From the human T2T-CHM13v2.0 reference genome, Homo sapiens, in the NCBI RefSeq assembly GCF_009914755.1, contig NC_060925.1: 64,000 nucleotides of DNA; one strand, given 5' to 3'. The position numbers were made by a program, and so were the translations under genes. This document shows positions 1 to 5,031 of this stretch, piece after piece. The first letter of the stretch is position 1, and every line of letters begins with the position of its first letter. Below the pieces are notes generated by a model. It saw nothing but the letters and a program-made list of their open reading frames with translations. It was not told the DNA's origin and ran no database searches.

Positions 1-363
1 CTCACCTTCAAGGTGTACCATAATAGAAAAAAGTTGCAATTCCTTGCCTCCACTGTGAGACAAACCCCAGCCACATCTCCAGCACACAAGAACTTCCAAA
101 CGCCTGAACCGCAGCGGCCAGGCATTCCTCCAGAACCTCCTCCCCCAGGAGCTTGCTACACGTGCTGGAAATCTGGCCACTGGGCCAAGGAATGCCCGCA
201 GCCCGGGATTCCTCCTAAGCCGCGTCCCATCTGTGTGGGACCCCACTGAAAATCGGACTGTTCAACTCACCTGGCAGCCACTCCCAGAGCCCCTGGAACT
301 CTGGCCCAAGGCTCTCTGACTGACTCCTTCCCAGATCTTCTCGGCTTAGGGGCTGAAGACTGA
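1..363 (+). pseudogene. gag: HERV-H gag C-terminus (nucleocapsid), disrupted
   Basis: CYTCWKSGHWAKEC is a CX2CX4HX4C zinc knuckle. The second knuckle is broken (RPICVGPH*KSDC, TGA at 247-249). Probable gag stop GAAGAC-TGA at 361-363. Confidence 0.85.
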
Positions 364-2340
364 CACTGCCCGATCGCCTCGGAAGCCCCCTAGACCATCA
401 CGGACGCCGAGCTTCGGGTAACTCTCACAATGGAAGGTAAGCCCGTCCCCTTCTTAATCAATACGGAGGCTACCCACTCCACATTACCCTCTTTTCAAGG
501 GCCTGTTTCCCTTGCCTCCATAACTGTTGTGGGTATTGATGGCCAGGCTTCTAAACCTCTTAAAACTCCCCAACTCTGGTGCCAACTTAGACAATACTCT
601 TTTAAGCACTCCTTTTTAGTTATCCCCACCTGCCCAGTTCCCTTATTAGGCTGAGACACTTTAACTAAATTATCTGCTTCCCTGACTATTCCTGGACTAC
701 AGCTATATCTCATTGCCACCCTTCTTCCCAATCCAAAGCCTCCTTTGCATCCTCCTCTTCTATCCCCCCACCTTAACTCACAAGTATAAGATACCTCTAC
801 TCCCTCCTTGGTGACCGATCATGCACCCCTTACCATCTCATTAAAACCTAATCACCCTTACCCCACTCAATGCCAATATCCCACCTCACAGCATGCTTTG
901 AAAGGATTAAAGCCTGTTATCACCCGCCTGCTACAGCATGGCCTTTTAAAGCCTATAAACTCTCCTTACAATTCCCCCATTTTACCTGTCCTAAAACCAG
1001 ACAAGCCTTACAAGTTAGTTCAGGATCTGCACCTTATCAACCAAATTGTTTTGCCTATACACCCTGTGGTGCCAAACCCATATACTCTCCTATCCTCAAT
1101 ACCTGCCTCTACAACCCATTATCGTGTTCTAGATCTCAAACATGCCTTCTTTACTATTCCTTTGCACCCTTCATCCCAGCCTCTCTTCACTTTCACTTGG
1201 ACTGACCCTGACACCCATCAAGCTCAGCAAATTACCTAGGCTGTACTGCTGCAAAGCTTCACAGACAGCCCCCATTACTTCAATCAAGCCCAAATTTCTT
1301 CCTCATCTGTTACCTATTTCGGCATAATTCTCATAAAAACACACGTGCTCTCCCTGCCAATCCTGTCCGACTAATCTCTCAAACCCAAGCACCTTCTACA
1401 AAACAACTCCTTTCCTTCCTAGGCATGGTTAGCGCAGTCAGAATTTTTACACAAGAGCCAGGACCACACCCTGTAGCCTTTCTGTCCAAACAACTTAACC
1501 TTACTGTTTTAACCTAGCCCTCATGTCTGTGTGCAGCGGCTGCCGCTGCTTTAATACTGTTAGAGGCCCTCAAAATAAGTAGAGGCCTTTCCTACCGGGT
1601 CTGAGAAGGCCACCACGGTCATTTCTTCCCTTCTGTCAGACATAATTCCCCGGTTTGGCCTTCCCACCTCTATACAGTCTGATAACGGACCAGCCTTTAC
1701 TAGCCAAATCACCAAAGCAGTTTCTCAGGCTCTTGGTATTCAGTGGAACCTTCATACCCCTTACCGTCCTCAATCTTCAGGAAAGGTAGAACGGACTAAT
1801 GGTCTTTTAAAAGGCACACCTCACCAAGCTCAGCCTCCAACTTAAAAAGGATTGGACAGTACTTTTACCTCTTGCTCTTCTCAGAGTCAGAGCCTGTCCC
1901 CGAGATGCTACAGGGTACAGTCCATTTGAACTTTTATATGGACGCACTTTCTTGCTTGGCCCCAACCTCATCCCAGACACCAGCCCTCTAGGCTACTATC
2001 TTCCAGTGCTCTAGCAGGCTAGACAGGAAATTCGCCAGGCTGCTAATCTTCTCTTGCCTACTCCAGATCCCCAGCCATATGAAGACAACCTAGCTGGACG
2101 ATCAGTTCTTGTTAAGAATCTGACCCCTCAAACTCTATAACCTCAATGGACCGGACCCTACTTAGTCATCTATAGTACCCCGACTGCCGTCCGCCTGCAG
2201 GATCCTCCCCACTGGGTTCACCATTCCAGAATAAAGCTGTGTCCATCGGACAGCCAGCCTAATCCCTCCTCTTCCTCCTGGAAGTCGCAAGTACTCTCCC
2301 CCACTTCCCTTAAACTCACTCGTATTTCTGAAGAACAGTA
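364..2340 (+). pseudogene. pol: HERV-H pro-pol remnant with internal deletions, stops and frameshifts
   Basis: Protease region FLINTEATHS has lost the catalytic DTGA motif. RT motifs SPYNSPILPV and VLDLKHAFF are present with a stop at 1237-1239. Integrase-like segment at about 1580-2340. The region is only about 2 kb, far shorter than an intact pro-pol. End coordinate approximate. Confidence 0.85.
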
Positions 2341-2635
2341 ATAACCCTTATGAGCCTAATACATCCCTTCATTCTATTAGGTCTGTTCGTCCTTACCCTA
2401 CTTTTTGCAACAGGGCTTTACGAAGTCACCCCACCACTTAGGCCGAGCCCCAAAAAACTAGTCATCCCTACTATCTTCTGTCCGGTCATACTCCTATTCT
2501 CCATTCTCAACTACTTATAAATGCCCTACTCTTGTTTACACTGCTGGTTTACACTGTTTCTTCAAGCCATCACAGCTGATATCTCTTGGTGCTATCCCCA
2601 AACTGCCACTCTTAACTCCCTCTTAAAGTGGATAG

Positions 2636-3787
2636 ATGATCTTTGCTGGCAAGGCACCCTCCAATACTTCCACCCTGATGAAGTTCTATTCTTTACTTTT
2701 ATACTCACTCTTATTCTCATTCCCATTCTTATGTCACCCTCTACCTCTCCCCAGCTATCTCCACCACACTGTCAACCTTACCCATTCTCTCCTAGCTGCT
2801 TCTAATCCCTCCTTAGCGAACAACTGCTGGCTTTGCATTTCCCTTTCTTCCAGTGCCTACACAGCTGTCCCCGTCTTACAGACAGACTGGGCAACATCTC
2901 CCGTCTCCCTACACCTCCGAACTTCCTTTAACAGCCCTCACCTTTACCCTCCTGAAGAACTCATTTACTTTCTAGACAGGTTCAGCAAGACTTCCCCAGA
3001 CATTTCACATCAGCAAGCTGCCGCCCTCCTTCGCACTTATTTAAAAAACCTTTCTCCTTATATTAACTCTACTCCCCCCATATTTGGACCTCTCACAACA
3101 CAAACTACTATTCCTGTGGCTGCTCCTTTATGTATCTCTCGGCAAAGACCCACTGGAATTCCCCTGGGTAACCTTTCACCTTCTCGATGTTCCTTTACTC
3201 TTCATCTCCGAAGTCCAACTACACACATCACTGAAACAATTGGAGCCTTCCAGCTCCATATTACAGACAAGCCCTCTATCAATACTGACAAACTTAAAAA
3301 CATTAGCAGTAATTATTGCTTAGGAAGACACGTGCCCTGTATTTCACTCCATCCTTGGCTACCTTCCCCTTGCTCATCAGACTCTCCTCCCAGGCCCTCT
3401 TCTTGTTTACTTATACCCAGCCCCGAAAATAACAGTGAAAGGTTGCTCGTAGATACTCAACGTTTTCTCATACACCATGAAAATCGAACCTCCCCCTCTA
3501 CGCAGTTACCCCATCAGTCCCCATTACAACCTCTGACAGCTGCCGCCCTAGGTGGATCCCTAGGAGTCTGGGTACAAGACACCCCTTTCAGCACTCCTTC
3601 TCACCTTTTTACTTTACATCTCCAGTTTTGCCTCGCACAAGGTCTCTTCTTCCTCTGTGGATCCTCTACCTACATGTGTCTACCTGCCAATTGGACAGCC
3701 ACATGTACACTAGTCTTCCTTACCCCCAAAATTCAATTTGCAAATGGGACCGAAGAGCTCCCTGTTCCCCTCATGACACCGACATGA
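2636..3787 (+). CDS. env: HERV-H env surface (SU) ORF, 383 aa, ending at a premature TGA in the furin site
   Basis: Signal-peptide-like MKFYSLLLYSLLFSFPFLC (second ATG at 2678), CWLC (CXXC) motif and many N-X-S/T sequons. Ends …LMTPT*QKR. Expression is not shown by the sequence. Confidence 0.85.
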   Translation: MIFAGKAPSNTSTLMKFYSLLLYSLLFSFPFLCHPLPLPSYLHHTVNLTHSLLAASNPSLANNCWLCISLSSSAYTAVPVLQTDWATSPVSLHLRTSFNSPHLYPPEELIYFLDRFSKTSPDISHQQAAALLRTYLKNLSPYINSTPPIFGPLTTQTTIPVAAPLCISRQRPTGIPLGNLSPSRCSFTLHLRSPTTHITETIGAFQLHITDKPSINTDKLKNISSNYCLGRHVPCISLHPWLPSPCSSDSPPRPSSCLLIPSPENNSERLLVDTQRFLIHHENRTSPSTQLPHQSPLQPLTAAALGGSLGVWVQDTPFSTPSHLFTLHLQFCLAQGLFFLCGSSTYMCLPANWTATCTLVFLTPKIQFANGTEELPVPLMTPT

Positions 3788-4390
3788 CAAAAAAGAGTTA
3801 TTCCACTAATTCCCTTGATGGTCGGTTTAGGACTTTCTGCCTCCATGATTGCTCTCGGTACTGGAATAGCAGGCATTTCAACGTCTGTCATGACCTTCTG
3901 TAGCCTGTCTAATGACTTCTCTGCTAGCATCACACACATATCACAAACTTTATCAGTCCTCCAGGCCCAAGTTGACTCTTTAGCTGCAGTTGTCCTCCAA
4001 AACCGCCGAGGCCTTGACTTACTCAATGCTGAAAAAGGAGGACTCTGCATATTCTTAAATGAGGAGTGTTGTTTTTACCTAAATCAATCTGGCCTGGTGT
4101 ATGACAACATAAAAAAACTCAAGGATAGAGCCCAAAAACTTGCCAACCAAGCAAGTAATTACGCTGAACCCCCTTGGGCACTCTCTAATTGGATGTCCTG
4201 GGTCCTCCCAATTCTTAGTCCTTTAATACCCATTTTTTTCCTTCTTTTATTCGGACCTTGTATCTTCCATTTAGTTTCTCAATTCATCCAAAACCATATC
4301 CAGGCCATCACCAATCATTCTATACGACAAATGTTTCTTCTAACATCCCCACAATATCACCCCTTACCACAAGACCTCCCTTCAGCTTAA
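3788..4390 (+). CDS. env: HERV-H env transmembrane (TM) portion, same frame as SU and open to the natural stop
   Basis: QKR-VIPLIPLMVGLG fusion peptide, immunosuppressive domain LQNRRGLDLLNAEKGGLC, CX6CC (CIFLNEECC), anchor WVLPILSPLIPIFFLLLFGPCIF and cytoplasmic tail. In-frame ATG at 3818. Confidence 0.8.
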   Translation, partial: QKRVIPLIPLMVGLGLSASMIALGTGIAGISTSVMTFCSLSNDFSASITHISQTLSVLQAQVDSLAAVVLQNRRGLDLLNAEKGGLCIFLNEECCFYLNQSGLVYDNIKKLKDRAQKLANQASNYAEPPWALSNWMSWVLPILSPLIPIFFLLLFGPCIFHLVSQFIQNHIQAITNHSIRQMFLLTSPQYHPLPQDLPSA

Positions 4391-4547
4391 TCTCTCCCAC
4401 TCTAGGTTCCCACGCCGCCCCTAATCGCACTTGAAGCAGCCCTGAGAAACATCGTCCATTCTCTCTCCATACCACCCCCCAAAAATTTTCGCCGCCCCAA
4501 CACTTCAATACTATTTTGTTTTATTTTTCTTATTAAGAAGGCAGGAA

Positions 4548-5031
4548 TGTCAGGCCTCTGAGCCCAAGCCAAGCCATCGCATCCCCTGTGACCTGCACGT
4601 ATACGCCCAGATGGCCTGAAGTAACTAAAGAATCACAAAAGAAGTGAATATGTCCTGCCCCACCTTAACTGATGACATTCCACCACAAAAGAAATGTAAA
4701 TGGCCGGTCCTTGCCTTAACTTATGACATTACCTTGTGAAAGTCCTTTTCCTGGCTCATCCTGGCTCAAAAATCACCCCCACTGAGCACCTTGCGACCCC
4801 CACTCCTGCCCACTGAGCACCTTGCGACCCCCACTCCCACCCGCCAGAGAACAAACCCCCTTTGACTGTAATTTTCCTTTACCTACCCAAATCCTATAAA
4901 ATGGCCCCACCCTTATCTCCCTTCACTGACTCTCTTTTCAGACTCAGCCCGCCTGCACCCAGGTGAAATAAACAGCTTTATTGCTCACACAAAGCCTGTT
5001 TGGTGGTCTCTTCACACGGACACGCATGAAA
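4548..5031 (+). mobile_element. HERV-H 3' LTR (LTR7 family)
   Basis: Starts TGTCAGGCCTCTGAG and ends …GGACACGCATGAAA. TATAAA at 4895-4900, AATAAA at 4967-4972, U3 imperfect repeats at about 4634-4730. Confidence 0.95.

What the first reader, a model, noticed from the sequence alone, without database searches (positions are those of the whole stretch)
2636..4390. Full-length HERV-H env broken by one stop exactly at the furin site, predicting a secreted SU-only protein
Seen: the two env ORFs share a frame (3815-2636=1179 nt). Bases 2636-4390 form a 584-codon env with no frameshift and one internal stop, TGA at 3785-3787, in ACA-TGA-CAA-AAA-AGA (T*QKR). This is the P4 Arg of an R-Q-K-R furin motif, probably CGA>TGA. 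The signal peptide, CWLC, fusion peptide, immunosuppressive domain, CX6CC and TM anchor are all retained, while gag/pro/pol of the same provirus carry stops and deletions. Known: most HERV-H copies have deleted env, only a few have long env ORFs, and truncated soluble Envs (suppressyn, feline Refrex-1) act by receptor interference. Inference: the locus could make a cleanly delimited, glycosylated 383-aa soluble SU acting as a restriction or fusion-modulating factor, hidden antisense in USH2A intron 21. A random CpG transition in a young provirus is an equally plausible explanation.
Basis: partly seen in the sequence, partly recalled or inferred. Interest (0 to 1): 0.85.

Follow-up and report, generated by a model that had tools for sequence, protein, structure and literature searches.

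The report
HERV-H env with common hotspot stop
This is a fairly young HERV-H provirus, transcribed in stem cells, whose envelope gene has a single stop codon at a mutational hotspot that is also hit in half of its sister copies, and nothing suggests selection has kept the gene.

Summary
Window 2636-4390 (+) holds 584 env codons with no frameshift and one stop, TGA at 3785-3787 (codon 384), at the P4 position of the SU/TM furin motif.

The functional reading is not supported.
- The same stop is present in 14 of 27 full-length HERV-H env copies of this genome. It is scattered over their tree, needing at least 12 changes, so it is a recurrent CpG-type hotspot.
- This copy has one of the shortest end branches, 0.0078 against a median of 0.019. 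From its own substitution rates, 1.2-1.35 nonsense hits are expected.
- Its private changes are 17 non-synonymous to 3 synonymous, or 10 to 0 by a stricter count.
- All 13 in-frame stops in gag/pro/pol, and the pol deletions, are shared with other copies. They predate integration.
- A copy on contig C24 carries the same 383-codon ORF.

A published table lists this locus as an LTR7up2 element highly transcribed in H1 embryonic stem cells.

Verdict: neutral decay of a provirus about 10 million years old.

The parts
1..249 (+). End of gag (nucleocapsid with a CCHC zinc knuckle). The 5' LTR, PBS and the rest of gag lie upstream of the window, at window -2061..0 (L031:4939-7000).
   Evidence: The ORF runs off the window start. 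Pfam zf-CCHC matches residues 51-67 of frame 1. The 5' LTR was located by blastn with the 3' LTR.
415..1576 (+). Protease and a truncated reverse transcriptase remnant. Thirteen frame-1 stops lie in window 1-1770. Three deletions relative to the chromosome 2 provirus sit near 1289, 1432 and 1577, together about 1.5 kb.
   Evidence: Pfam RVP maps to window 415-684. RVT_1 matches only in part and below its cut-off. Deletions were mapped and are shared with L037. All 13 stops are shared with other copies.
1579..2635 (+). 3' part of pol (integrase core and C-terminal domain, with a frame change between them). This is where the block that is 97% identical to the chromosome 2 (envH1) provirus begins.
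   Evidence: Pfam rve matches in frame 1 and MLVIN_C in frame 2. The blastn block window 1579-5031 is 96.99% identical to L032.
2636..3784 (+). Env surface-subunit ORF of 383 codons: hydrophobic N-terminal leader, CWLC, 10 N-glycosylation sequons.
   Evidence: It aligns to the SU part of Syncytin-2.
3785..3787 (+). In-frame TGA (codon 384) at the P4 position of the SU/TM furin motif.
   Evidence: The same stop is in 13 of 26 paralogues and needs at least 12 changes on the tree.
3788..4390 (+). Rest of the furin motif (QKR) and the transmembrane subunit: fusion peptide, immunosuppressive domain, CX6CC, membrane anchor, cytoplasmic tail and the terminal TAA.
   Evidence: Five strictly private non-synonymous changes lie here.
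4548..5031 (+). 3' LTR, preceded by a polypurine tract. The target-site duplication CCTG (or TCCTG) follows it.
   Evidence: There are 12 mismatches in 454 aligned bases against the 5' LTR, plus a 31-column gap.

Best explanation
This is the env gene of a pol-deleted, mosaic HERV-H provirus carrying LTR7up-type LTRs. The provirus spans window -2061..5031, about 7.1 kb, has an intact target-site duplication, and probably integrated about 10 million years ago. Since then env has decayed neutrally.

Env looks almost whole because the copy is young. The broken gag/pro/pol was inherited already broken from a defective parental element. The env-bearing 3' half came from an envH1-like lineage, most likely by recombination before integration.

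The part of the locus that does something is the LTR promoter, which drives transcription in pluripotent cells as at other LTR7up HERVH loci. No host function of the 383-codon ORF is indicated.

Shown: the anatomy, the recurrence of the stop, the neutral pattern of private changes, and the shared gag/pol lesions. Inferred: the age in years, recombination before integration, and the absence of a protein function.
For: 1) The stop is recurrent. Codon 384 is TGA in 14 of 27 full-length copies, counting this one. On a tree built without CpG-prone columns, the stop needs at least 12 changes and is no more clustered than shuffled labels, whose mean is 9.3. Seven hotspot codons (95, 184, 192, 284, 384, 458, 564) account for 55 of the 93 stops.

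2) The copy is young. Its end branch is 0.0078 against a median of 0.019. LTR mismatches are 12 of 454, 8 of them at CpG. Published dating puts the 7up1/2 burst at about 10-14 Mya (passages).

3) Its integrity is as expected. Disruptions rise with end-branch length (Spearman 0.62, p 0.0006). The seven copies with a branch of 0.0084 or less carry 3, 5, 1, 4, 1 (this copy), 0 and 2 disruptions. Expected nonsense hits are 1.24-1.35. In the 26 paralogues there are 34 frameshifting indels against 92 stops (tallied), so having no frameshift here is unremarkable.

4) There is no purifying selection.
- Changes private to this copy relative to its two nearest relatives: 17 N to 3 S overall, SU 9:3, TM 8:0.
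- Strictly unique changes: 10 N to 0 S, five in SU and five in TM.
- Several fall at positions identical in 25-26 of the 26 other copies.
- P(at least 17 N of 20) is 0.0008 if omega were 0.3.

5) The gag/pro/pol lesions are inherited. 13 of 13 frame-1 stops are shared with L037, L039 and L041, and 12 of 13 with L038 and L040. L037 aligns without a break across the pol deletion points.

6) The provirus is a mosaic. The 5' 3.1 kb is 91.3% identical to the envH1 provirus but about 95% identical to env-less copies. The 3' 3.45 kb is 97.0% identical to the envH1 provirus.
Against: - The locus is not silent. Carter et al. 2022, supplementary file 1, flags it RNA=1 (FPKM>2 in H1 cells, after Wang et al. 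2014), together with NANOG, KLF4, H3K4me1, H3K4me3 and H3K27ac. It is not flagged for KAP1 or H3K9me3. The ORF therefore sits in transcribed RNA.
- The env ATG at 2636 is the only ATG after 2521 in window 2401-2640. A splice acceptor in that stretch would make it the first AUG.
- Codon 384 is hit somewhat more often than the other six hotspot codons: 14 of 23 copies at risk, against 41 of 128 pooled. The binomial p is 0.004 before correcting for choosing the highest of seven, and the heterogeneity chi-square gives p 0.08.
- The private-change counts are small. For SU alone, omega of 0.5 cannot be rejected.
- No ape orthologue, human population data, splice data or protein data could be examined.
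Confidence: 0.85

Rival explanations
1. The stop created a domesticated gene for a secreted, glycosylated SU-only protein. That protein would block the HERV-H receptor or modulate fusion, as suppressyn and Refrex-1 do.
For: A 383-codon ORF with leader, CWLC and 10 sequons ends four residues before the natural SU end. The stop lies in what would be the last exon of an env mRNA, so nonsense-mediated decay is not expected (inference). The locus is transcribed in H1 cells under an LTR7up2 promoter. Frank et al. proposed a pool of 1,507 SU-containing env ORFs as possible antiviral factors (preprint passages).
Against: - Private changes in SU are 9 N to 3 S, or 5 N to 0 S by the strict count. Two fall at positions invariant in all 26 other copies, codons 233 and 355.
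- The stop is a hotspot hit shared with 13 paralogues. Twelve of those have a broken SU as well.
- Integrity matches neutral expectation.
- The 5' half has acquired no private stop either, so env is not preferentially preserved.
- In Frank et al., HERVH env did not restrict the RD114-pseudotyped virus tested. No HERV-H receptor came up in my reading.
Confidence: 0.04
2. The SU ORF is translated as a by-product of stem-cell or tumour HERVH transcription. The result is a non-selected protein, at most an antigen or a cross-reacting signal in 'envH1-3' assays, with no host function.
For: The locus is transcribed in H1 cells. Its env is 97.8% identical in nucleotides to the chromosome 2 env. Published envH1-3 assays use one shared primer pair for the three genes (Table 1 legend), and published antisera use peptides from env62, one of them aa 370-386, which spans this break. 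The neutral evolution seen here is compatible with this reading.
Against: There is no evidence of a spliced env mRNA or of translation from this locus. The -3/+4 context of the ATG is weak (T at -3, A at +4, read). Unspliced HERVH RNA carries long upstream sequence ahead of env. One review states that HERVH is primarily transcriptionally active rather than coding.
Confidence: 0.1
3. A family-level effect. Truncation exactly at the SU/TM boundary is favoured in HERV-H env copies, either to remove TM or to produce SU. That would explain why codon 384 is hit more often than the other hotspot codons.
For: Codon 384 is a stop in 14 of 23 copies at risk, against 41 of 128 for the other six hotspot codons (binomial p 0.004 uncorrected). 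Two loci, this one and L018 on C24, keep an open 383-codon frame ending at that stop.
Against: The heterogeneity test over the seven codons is not significant (p 0.08), and the binomial p is about 0.03 after allowing for the choice of the highest of seven. Twelve of the 14 copies with the stop have further stops or frameshifts inside SU. Private N:S in SU of L018 is 30:10, which looks neutral. Local differences in methylation or sequence context explain unequal CpG decay more simply.
Confidence: 0.03

Closest known systems
envH1 (p62, HERV-H 2q24.3), the only HERV-H env with a complete open frame; here locus L002, C2:166165521-166167272
   Same: Same length of 584 codons with no indel between them, and 97.8% nucleotide identity (96% amino-acid identity). 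They sit in the same small clade. The whole 3' 3.45 kb of the two proviruses is 97% identical.
   Different: The chromosome 2 copy has no internal stop. This copy has one at codon 384, so its ORF ends before the immunosuppressive domain. The 5' halves of the two proviruses are only 91% identical, and this copy lacks about 1.5 kb of pol. The name and chromosome band come from Table 1 of PMC3717959. Equating that gene with L002 is my inference from chromosome and ORF length.
envH2 (3q26, 563 aa) and envH3 (2q24.1, 555 aa)
   Same: They are full-length HERV-H env copies with a single stop at a hotspot codon. L003 and L008 both stop at codon 564, giving own-frame ORFs of 563 and 555 codons (lengths as).
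   Different: Their stop lies in the cytoplasmic tail, so SU, TM ectodomain and anchor are all encoded. Here the stop lies at the SU/TM junction.
Suppressyn (ERVH48-1) and feline Refrex-1: truncated Env proteins that block a receptor
   Same: An env-derived ORF that keeps the leader and surface domain and lacks a membrane anchor. The locus is transcribed from its LTR in pluripotent cells, as described for suppressyn.
   Different: Suppressyn is reported as conserved across hominoids with a significant dN/dS test and shown antiviral activity (preprint passages). This ORF shows a neutral pattern of private changes and has no functional data. Details on Refrex-1 come only from citations and from recall.
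LTR7up-driven HERVH loci transcribed in human pluripotent cells (Wang et al. 2014; Carter et al. 2022)
   Same: The locus is listed as chr1:216145601-216152688 (hg38, +), subfamily 7up2, RNA=1, with NANOG, KLF4, H3K4me3 and H3K27ac.
   Different: Most such loci are about 5.7-5.9 kb and lack env, as seen in the lengths and in the env-less relatives. This one is 7.1 kb and keeps a full-length env.
Syncytin-2 (HERV-FRD Env, PDB 7oix)
   Same: Homologous over SU and TM (E 1.9e-84, query residues 49-559), with shared CWLC, furin-site position, immunosuppressive domain and CX6CC.
   Different: Syncytin-2 is an intact, co-opted fusogen. This gene is interrupted at the cleavage site, and no selection is detectable.

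Membership tests
Gamma-type retroviral Env (Pfam TLV_coat), HERV-H group | Significant match to TLV_coat | tested here: met
   E 1.6e-64, 219 bits against a cut-off of 22.5.
Gamma-type retroviral Env (Pfam TLV_coat), HERV-H group | CWLC in SU paired with CX6CC in TM, an immunosuppressive domain and a membrane anchor | tested here: met
   Read directly and aligned to Syncytin-1 and Syncytin-2. The motif definitions are recalled.
Gamma-type retroviral Env (Pfam TLV_coat), HERV-H group | Intact R-X-K/R-R furin site joining SU and TM in one precursor | tested here: not met
   The P4 position is the TGA at 3785-3787. Only Q-K-R remains.
Gamma-type retroviral Env (Pfam TLV_coat), HERV-H group | High nucleotide identity to recognised HERV-H env genes, inside a provirus with LTR7-type LTRs | tested here: met
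   90.6-97.9% identity to 26 genomic copies, including those on chromosomes 2 and 3. The LTR is classified 7up2 in Carter et al., supplementary file 1.
Coding HERV-H env genes (envH1-3: open frame encompassing the immunosuppressive domain) | ORF from the env ATG through the immunosuppressive domain | tested here: not met
   The own-frame ORF is 383 codons. The domain lies at about codons 455-472, downstream of the stop.
Domesticated truncated Env restriction or fusion modulators (suppressyn, Refrex-1 type) | ORF with leader and receptor-binding surface domain but no membrane anchor | tested here: met
Domesticated truncated Env restriction or fusion modulators (suppressyn, Refrex-1 type) | Purifying selection on the ORF after integration | tested here: not met
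   Private changes in SU are 9 N to 3 S, or 5 N to 0 S strictly unique. Integrity equals neutral expectation. The counts are small, and ape orthologues were not available.
Domesticated truncated Env restriction or fusion modulators (suppressyn, Refrex-1 type) | Conservation of the ORF and its stop at the orthologous locus in other species | not testable with these tools
   No primate genomes are held. The protein search returned no near-identical 383-aa protein.
Domesticated truncated Env restriction or fusion modulators (suppressyn, Refrex-1 type) | Expression as mRNA and protein in a defined tissue | tested here: inconclusive
   Locus-level RNA is flagged in H1 cells. There are no data on a spliced env mRNA or a protein.
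Domesticated truncated Env restriction or fusion modulators (suppressyn, Refrex-1 type) | Receptor binding or interference activity | not testable with these tools
   This needs a bench assay.

The most novel reading that the evidence does not exclude
In pluripotent cells the LTR7up2 promoter at this locus could yield a spliced env mRNA whose first AUG is at 2636. The natural 383-codon ORF would then be secreted as a soluble HERV-H surface glycoprotein that occupies the unidentified HERV-H receptor in the epiblast. The copy on contig C24 with the same ORF, and the mild excess of stops at this codon across the family, would make SU-only truncation a recurrent, weakly favoured outcome rather than pure decay.
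Probability: 0.05. Interest if true: 0.6.

Novelty: new member of a known kind. Interest (0 to 1): 0.2.

Why it matters
As found, this is a useful negative. It shows why an almost intact env beside wrecked gag and pol does not indicate selection in HERV-H. The wreckage is inherited from defective parental elements, and the neat stop at the furin site is the family's commonest hotspot lesion.

It has practical value for people measuring 'HERV-H Env'. This locus is transcribed in embryonic stem cells. Its env is 97.8% identical to envH1, so shared primers, probes and peptide antisera may not distinguish the two.

If the small remaining possibility were true, it would add a second human SU-only env product after suppressyn, expressed in the epiblast.

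Tried and rejected
- Literature on this locus's env. Searches for HERV-H + env + 1q41, HERV-H + USH2A, HERVH_1q41 and HERV-H + env + premature stop + CpG found no description of it. The 1q41 HERVH loci they did mention lie near 222 Mb and are different elements. Mayer et al. 2011 list no named ERVH locus at 1q41.
- Jern et al. 2005 (PMC1091717), the paper most likely to list this provirus, is not held. De Parseval et al. 2001 and 2003 were not available either. One search failed on a term that was too long.
- Frank et al. list 1,507 env ORFs and may include this one.
- The protein database search with the natural 383-aa ORF gave ENH3_HUMAN at 92% identity and many unnamed fragments. It gave no near-identical protein that could stand for an ape orthologue.
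- A search for Ribo-seq evidence on HERVH env found only a general review.
- Idea rejected: that the stop was inherited from a master copy that spread SU-only env. The stop is scattered on the tree.
- Idea rejected: that the absence of frameshifts is remarkable. Several much older copies also have none.
- I ran no structure prediction or complex prediction. They would not discriminate between the explanations.
Full report
WHAT IS THERE

Window 2636-4390 on the plus strand reads as 584 env codons in a single frame. There is one internal stop, TGA at 3785-3787 (codon 384), in the context T-*-Q-K-R, and the terminal TAA is at 4388-4390. The upstream ORF is 383 codons (2636-3787).

Pfam TLV_coat matches at E 1.6e-64. 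The read-through protein, with X at the break, aligns to Syncytin-2 (7oix_A, E 1.9e-84, residues 49-559) and Syncytin-1. That places the break at the SU/TM junction, directly before the fusion peptide. CWLC, the immunosuppressive domain, CX6CC and the anchor are all visible. The 383-aa part has 10 N-glycosylation sequons and 13 cysteines.

THE PROVIRUS

Using the 3' LTR as a probe, the 5' LTR lies 2 kb upstream of the window (L031:4939-5392, which is window -2061..-1608). The 3' LTR is at window 4548-5031.

The element is about 7.1 kb and is flanked by a CCTG/TCCTG duplication, with a polypurine tract before the 3' LTR. It therefore represents one integration event.

The LTRs differ at 12 of 454 aligned bases, 8 of them at CpG, plus a 31-column gap. 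With commonly used neutral rates (recalled), that is roughly 6-13 million years.

Pfam finds the following remnants:
- a zinc knuckle;
- protease;
- a partial reverse transcriptase, below its cut-off;
- a partial integrase core;
- the MLV-type integrase C-terminal domain, in a different frame.

About 1.5 kb of pol is missing compared with the chromosome 2 provirus.

The element is a mosaic. Its 5' 3.1 kb is 91.3% identical to the chromosome 2 (envH1) provirus but about 95% identical to env-less HERV-H copies. One of these is L037 on C14, which aligns without a break across the same pol deletion points. From window 1579 to the end, the element is 97.0% identical to the envH1 provirus.

THE FAMILY CONTEXT

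A six-frame search of the window's own genome with the read-through protein gave 84 matches. Thirty loci were handed out, one of them the window's own (L001).

I aligned the 26 of the 29 other loci that cover the whole env at nucleotide level. I dropped L026 (82% identical and 5'-incomplete), L028 (5'-truncated) and L030 (split alignment). The 54 matches without a locus were not examined.

The nearest copy is on chromosome 2 (L002, 97.8% nucleotide identity, 584 codons, no stop). L003 and L008 stop at codon 564 and give 563- and 555-codon ORFs. This matches envH1 at 2q24.3, envH2 at 3q26 and envH3 at 2q24.1 as tabulated in PMC3717959 (Table 1 passage, which prints 585 aa for envH1). Equating them is my inference.

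THE STOP IS A HOTSPOT

Codon 384 is a stop in 13 of the 26 paralogues, so in 14 of 27 copies counting this one. On a maximum-likelihood tree built after removing 192 CpG-prone columns, the stop needs at least 12 changes. Starred branches alone force 4. Shuffled labels need 9.3 on average, so the stop is not clustered at all.

Stops recur at seven codons of one CpG-containing type, with these counts among the 27 copies:

| Codon | Copies with a stop |
|---|---|
| 95 | 9 |
| 184 | 6 |
| 192 | 5 |
| 284 | 6 |
| 384 | 14 |
| 458 | 5 |
| 564 | 10 |

Together they account for 55 of the 93 stops. This copy is still intact at the other six. The 13 paralogues with a sense codon at 384 differ from the stop at one base (9 copies) or two bases (4 copies).

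The placement 'exactly at the furin site' is the single most likely place for a HERV-H env to acquire its first stop.

Codon 384 is hit somewhat more often than its six peers: 14 of 23 copies at risk against 41 of 128. The binomial p is 0.004 before correction, and the heterogeneity test gives p 0.08. I leave this as a minor unexplained point.

IS ENV BETTER PRESERVED THAN NEUTRALITY ALLOWS? NO.

- Branch length. The tree is star-like, and this copy's end branch (0.0078) is among the shortest; the median is 0.019.
- Disruptions track age. Stops plus frameshifting indels, tallied by hand, rise with end-branch length (Spearman 0.62, p 0.0006). The seven copies with a branch of 0.0084 or less carry 3, 5, 1, 4, 1 (this copy), 0 and 2 disruptions.
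- Expected stops. I counted every single-base change in this env that would create a stop, by mutation class, and applied this copy's own private substitution rates. That gives 1.24-1.35 expected nonsense hits, with P(at most 1) = 0.61-0.65. About two thirds of the expectation comes from the seven hotspot codons.
- Frameshifts. The 26 paralogues hold 34 frameshifting indels against 92 stops, and several much older copies have none. Having no frameshift here is ordinary.

SELECTION ON THE SEQUENCE

At sites where the two nearest copies (L002, L023) agree and this copy differs, there are 20 changes: 17 non-synonymous and 3 synonymous. SU has 9:3 and TM has 8:0. The Nei-Gojobori site ratio is 3.0-3.3.

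Three of these codons (90, 169, 275) turned out to be states shared with many other copies, so I repeated the count strictly. I kept only changes unique or nearly unique to this copy where at least 90% of the others agree. That leaves 10 changes, all non-synonymous: five in SU (codons 80, 116, 233, 306, 355) and five in TM. Codons 233 and 355 are identical in all 26 other copies.

The pooled private N:S in the other 26 copies is 324:151 in SU and 177:97 in TM. An omega of 0.3 is rejected for the whole gene (P = 0.0008) and is borderline for SU alone (P = 0.053). An omega of 0.5 cannot be rejected for SU. The pattern is neutral, with limited power.

THE CONTRAST WITH GAG/PRO/POL IS NOT REAL

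Frame 1 of window 1-1770 has 13 stops. All 13 are present at the homologous positions in L037, L039 and L041. Twelve are present in L038 and L040, and 6-9 are present even in the four env-bearing proviruses. The pol deletions are shared too.

These lesions were inherited from the parental element. Since integration, the 5' part has gained no private in-frame stop in 1,770 bases, and env has gained one in 1,752.

THE SAME ORF EXISTS ELSEWHERE

Among the 27 copies, five keep the first 383 codons open: this one, L002, L003, L008 and L018 on contig C24. L018 ends at the very same stop and has neutral-looking private changes, 30 N to 10 S in SU.

The locus is not silent. I estimated its hg38 position from the window's T2T coordinates and recalled USH2A coordinates. 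With that estimate I found it in supplementary file 1 of Carter et al. 2022 (PMC8912925) as chr1:216145601-216152688, plus strand, subfamily 7up2. Strand, length and the first LTR bases agree.

The row reads:

| Flag = 1 | Flag = 0 |
|---|---|
| RNA | GRO-seq top seventh |
| NANOG | chimeric transcript |
| KLF4 | KAP1 |
| ZNF534 | H3K9me3 |
| H3K4me1 | |
| H3K4me3 | |
| H3K27ac | |

The paper's methods define the RNA flag as FPKM>2 in H1 cells from Wang et al. 2014 (passages). [quoted passage not shown]

In window 2401-2640 the only ATGs are at 2521 and 2636. An acceptor between them would make the env AUG the first one. I read a pyrimidine-rich stretch ending in AG near 2566, but I did not test it.

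Frank et al. (preprint passages) already proposed that 1,507 SU-containing env ORFs form a reservoir of possible antiviral factors. In that work, HERVH env did not restrict the RD114-pseudotyped virus.

VERDICT

The most likely account (about 85%) is a mosaic, pol-deleted HERV-H provirus with LTR7up LTRs that integrated about 10 million years ago. Its LTR acts as a pluripotency-specific promoter. Its env is a young pseudogene, struck once at the family's commonest hotspot.

Translation of a non-selected SU by-product is possible (about 10%). A selected soluble SU function is unlikely (about 4-5%).

My searches found no printed description of this locus's env. The papers most likely to list it were not available, and the supplements of Frank et al. 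are closed. I therefore call it a new member of a known kind rather than something new.

Ape orthologues, human variation, splicing and protein evidence could not be examined with these tools, and those remain the decisive tests.

Noticed in passing
window -2061..5031 (L031:4939-7000 plus window 1-5031); switch point near window 1577-1579: The provirus is a mosaic. The 5' half resembles env-less HERV-H copies (about 95%) and the 3' half resembles the envH1 provirus (97%). The change in affinity coincides with the large pol deletion. The intact target-site duplication argues for recombination before integration, or for later gene conversion.
   Followed up: partly
L018 (G000:C24:20331896-20333413): A second locus has exactly the same 383-codon env ORF ending at the same stop, although its end branch is long (0.040). 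All five of its disruptions lie at or after codon 384. Private N:S in SU is 30:10, which looks neutral.
   Followed up: partly
codon 384 of the env alignment (window 3785-3787): Among the seven CpG-type hotspot codons, this one is hit most often: 14 of 23 copies at risk, against 41 of 128 for the others. The uncorrected p is 0.004 and the heterogeneity p is 0.08. The cause was not examined.
   Followed up: partly
L003 (C3:169606358-169608109) and L008 (C2:155325244-155326971): The copies I take to be envH2 and envH3 have a single stop, in the tail at codon 564. Their end branches (0.022 and 0.015) are ones at which other copies carry 4-7 disruptions. L002 shows private N:S of 9:8. These three look better preserved than the window's copy.
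   Followed up: no
window 4548-5031 versus L031:4939-5392: The 3' LTR is 31 bases longer than the 5' LTR. The blastn pieces overlap by 30 bases in the 5' LTR, as a short tandem duplication would produce.
   Followed up: no
window 2521-2805 (+): A 94-codon ORF in another frame starts at the only other ATG upstream of env and overlaps the env start. It would be an upstream ORF in any transcript that includes 2521.
   Followed up: no
window 2650-3907: Almost all of the SU-coding sequence is unmasked in NCBI's repeat file (hub table), although it is proviral. Env-bearing HERV-H sequence can therefore look like unique DNA to a reader.
   Followed up: no
window 3733-4050 (-): A 105-codon ORF lies antisense to the env TM region. 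It was not examined further.
   Followed up: no
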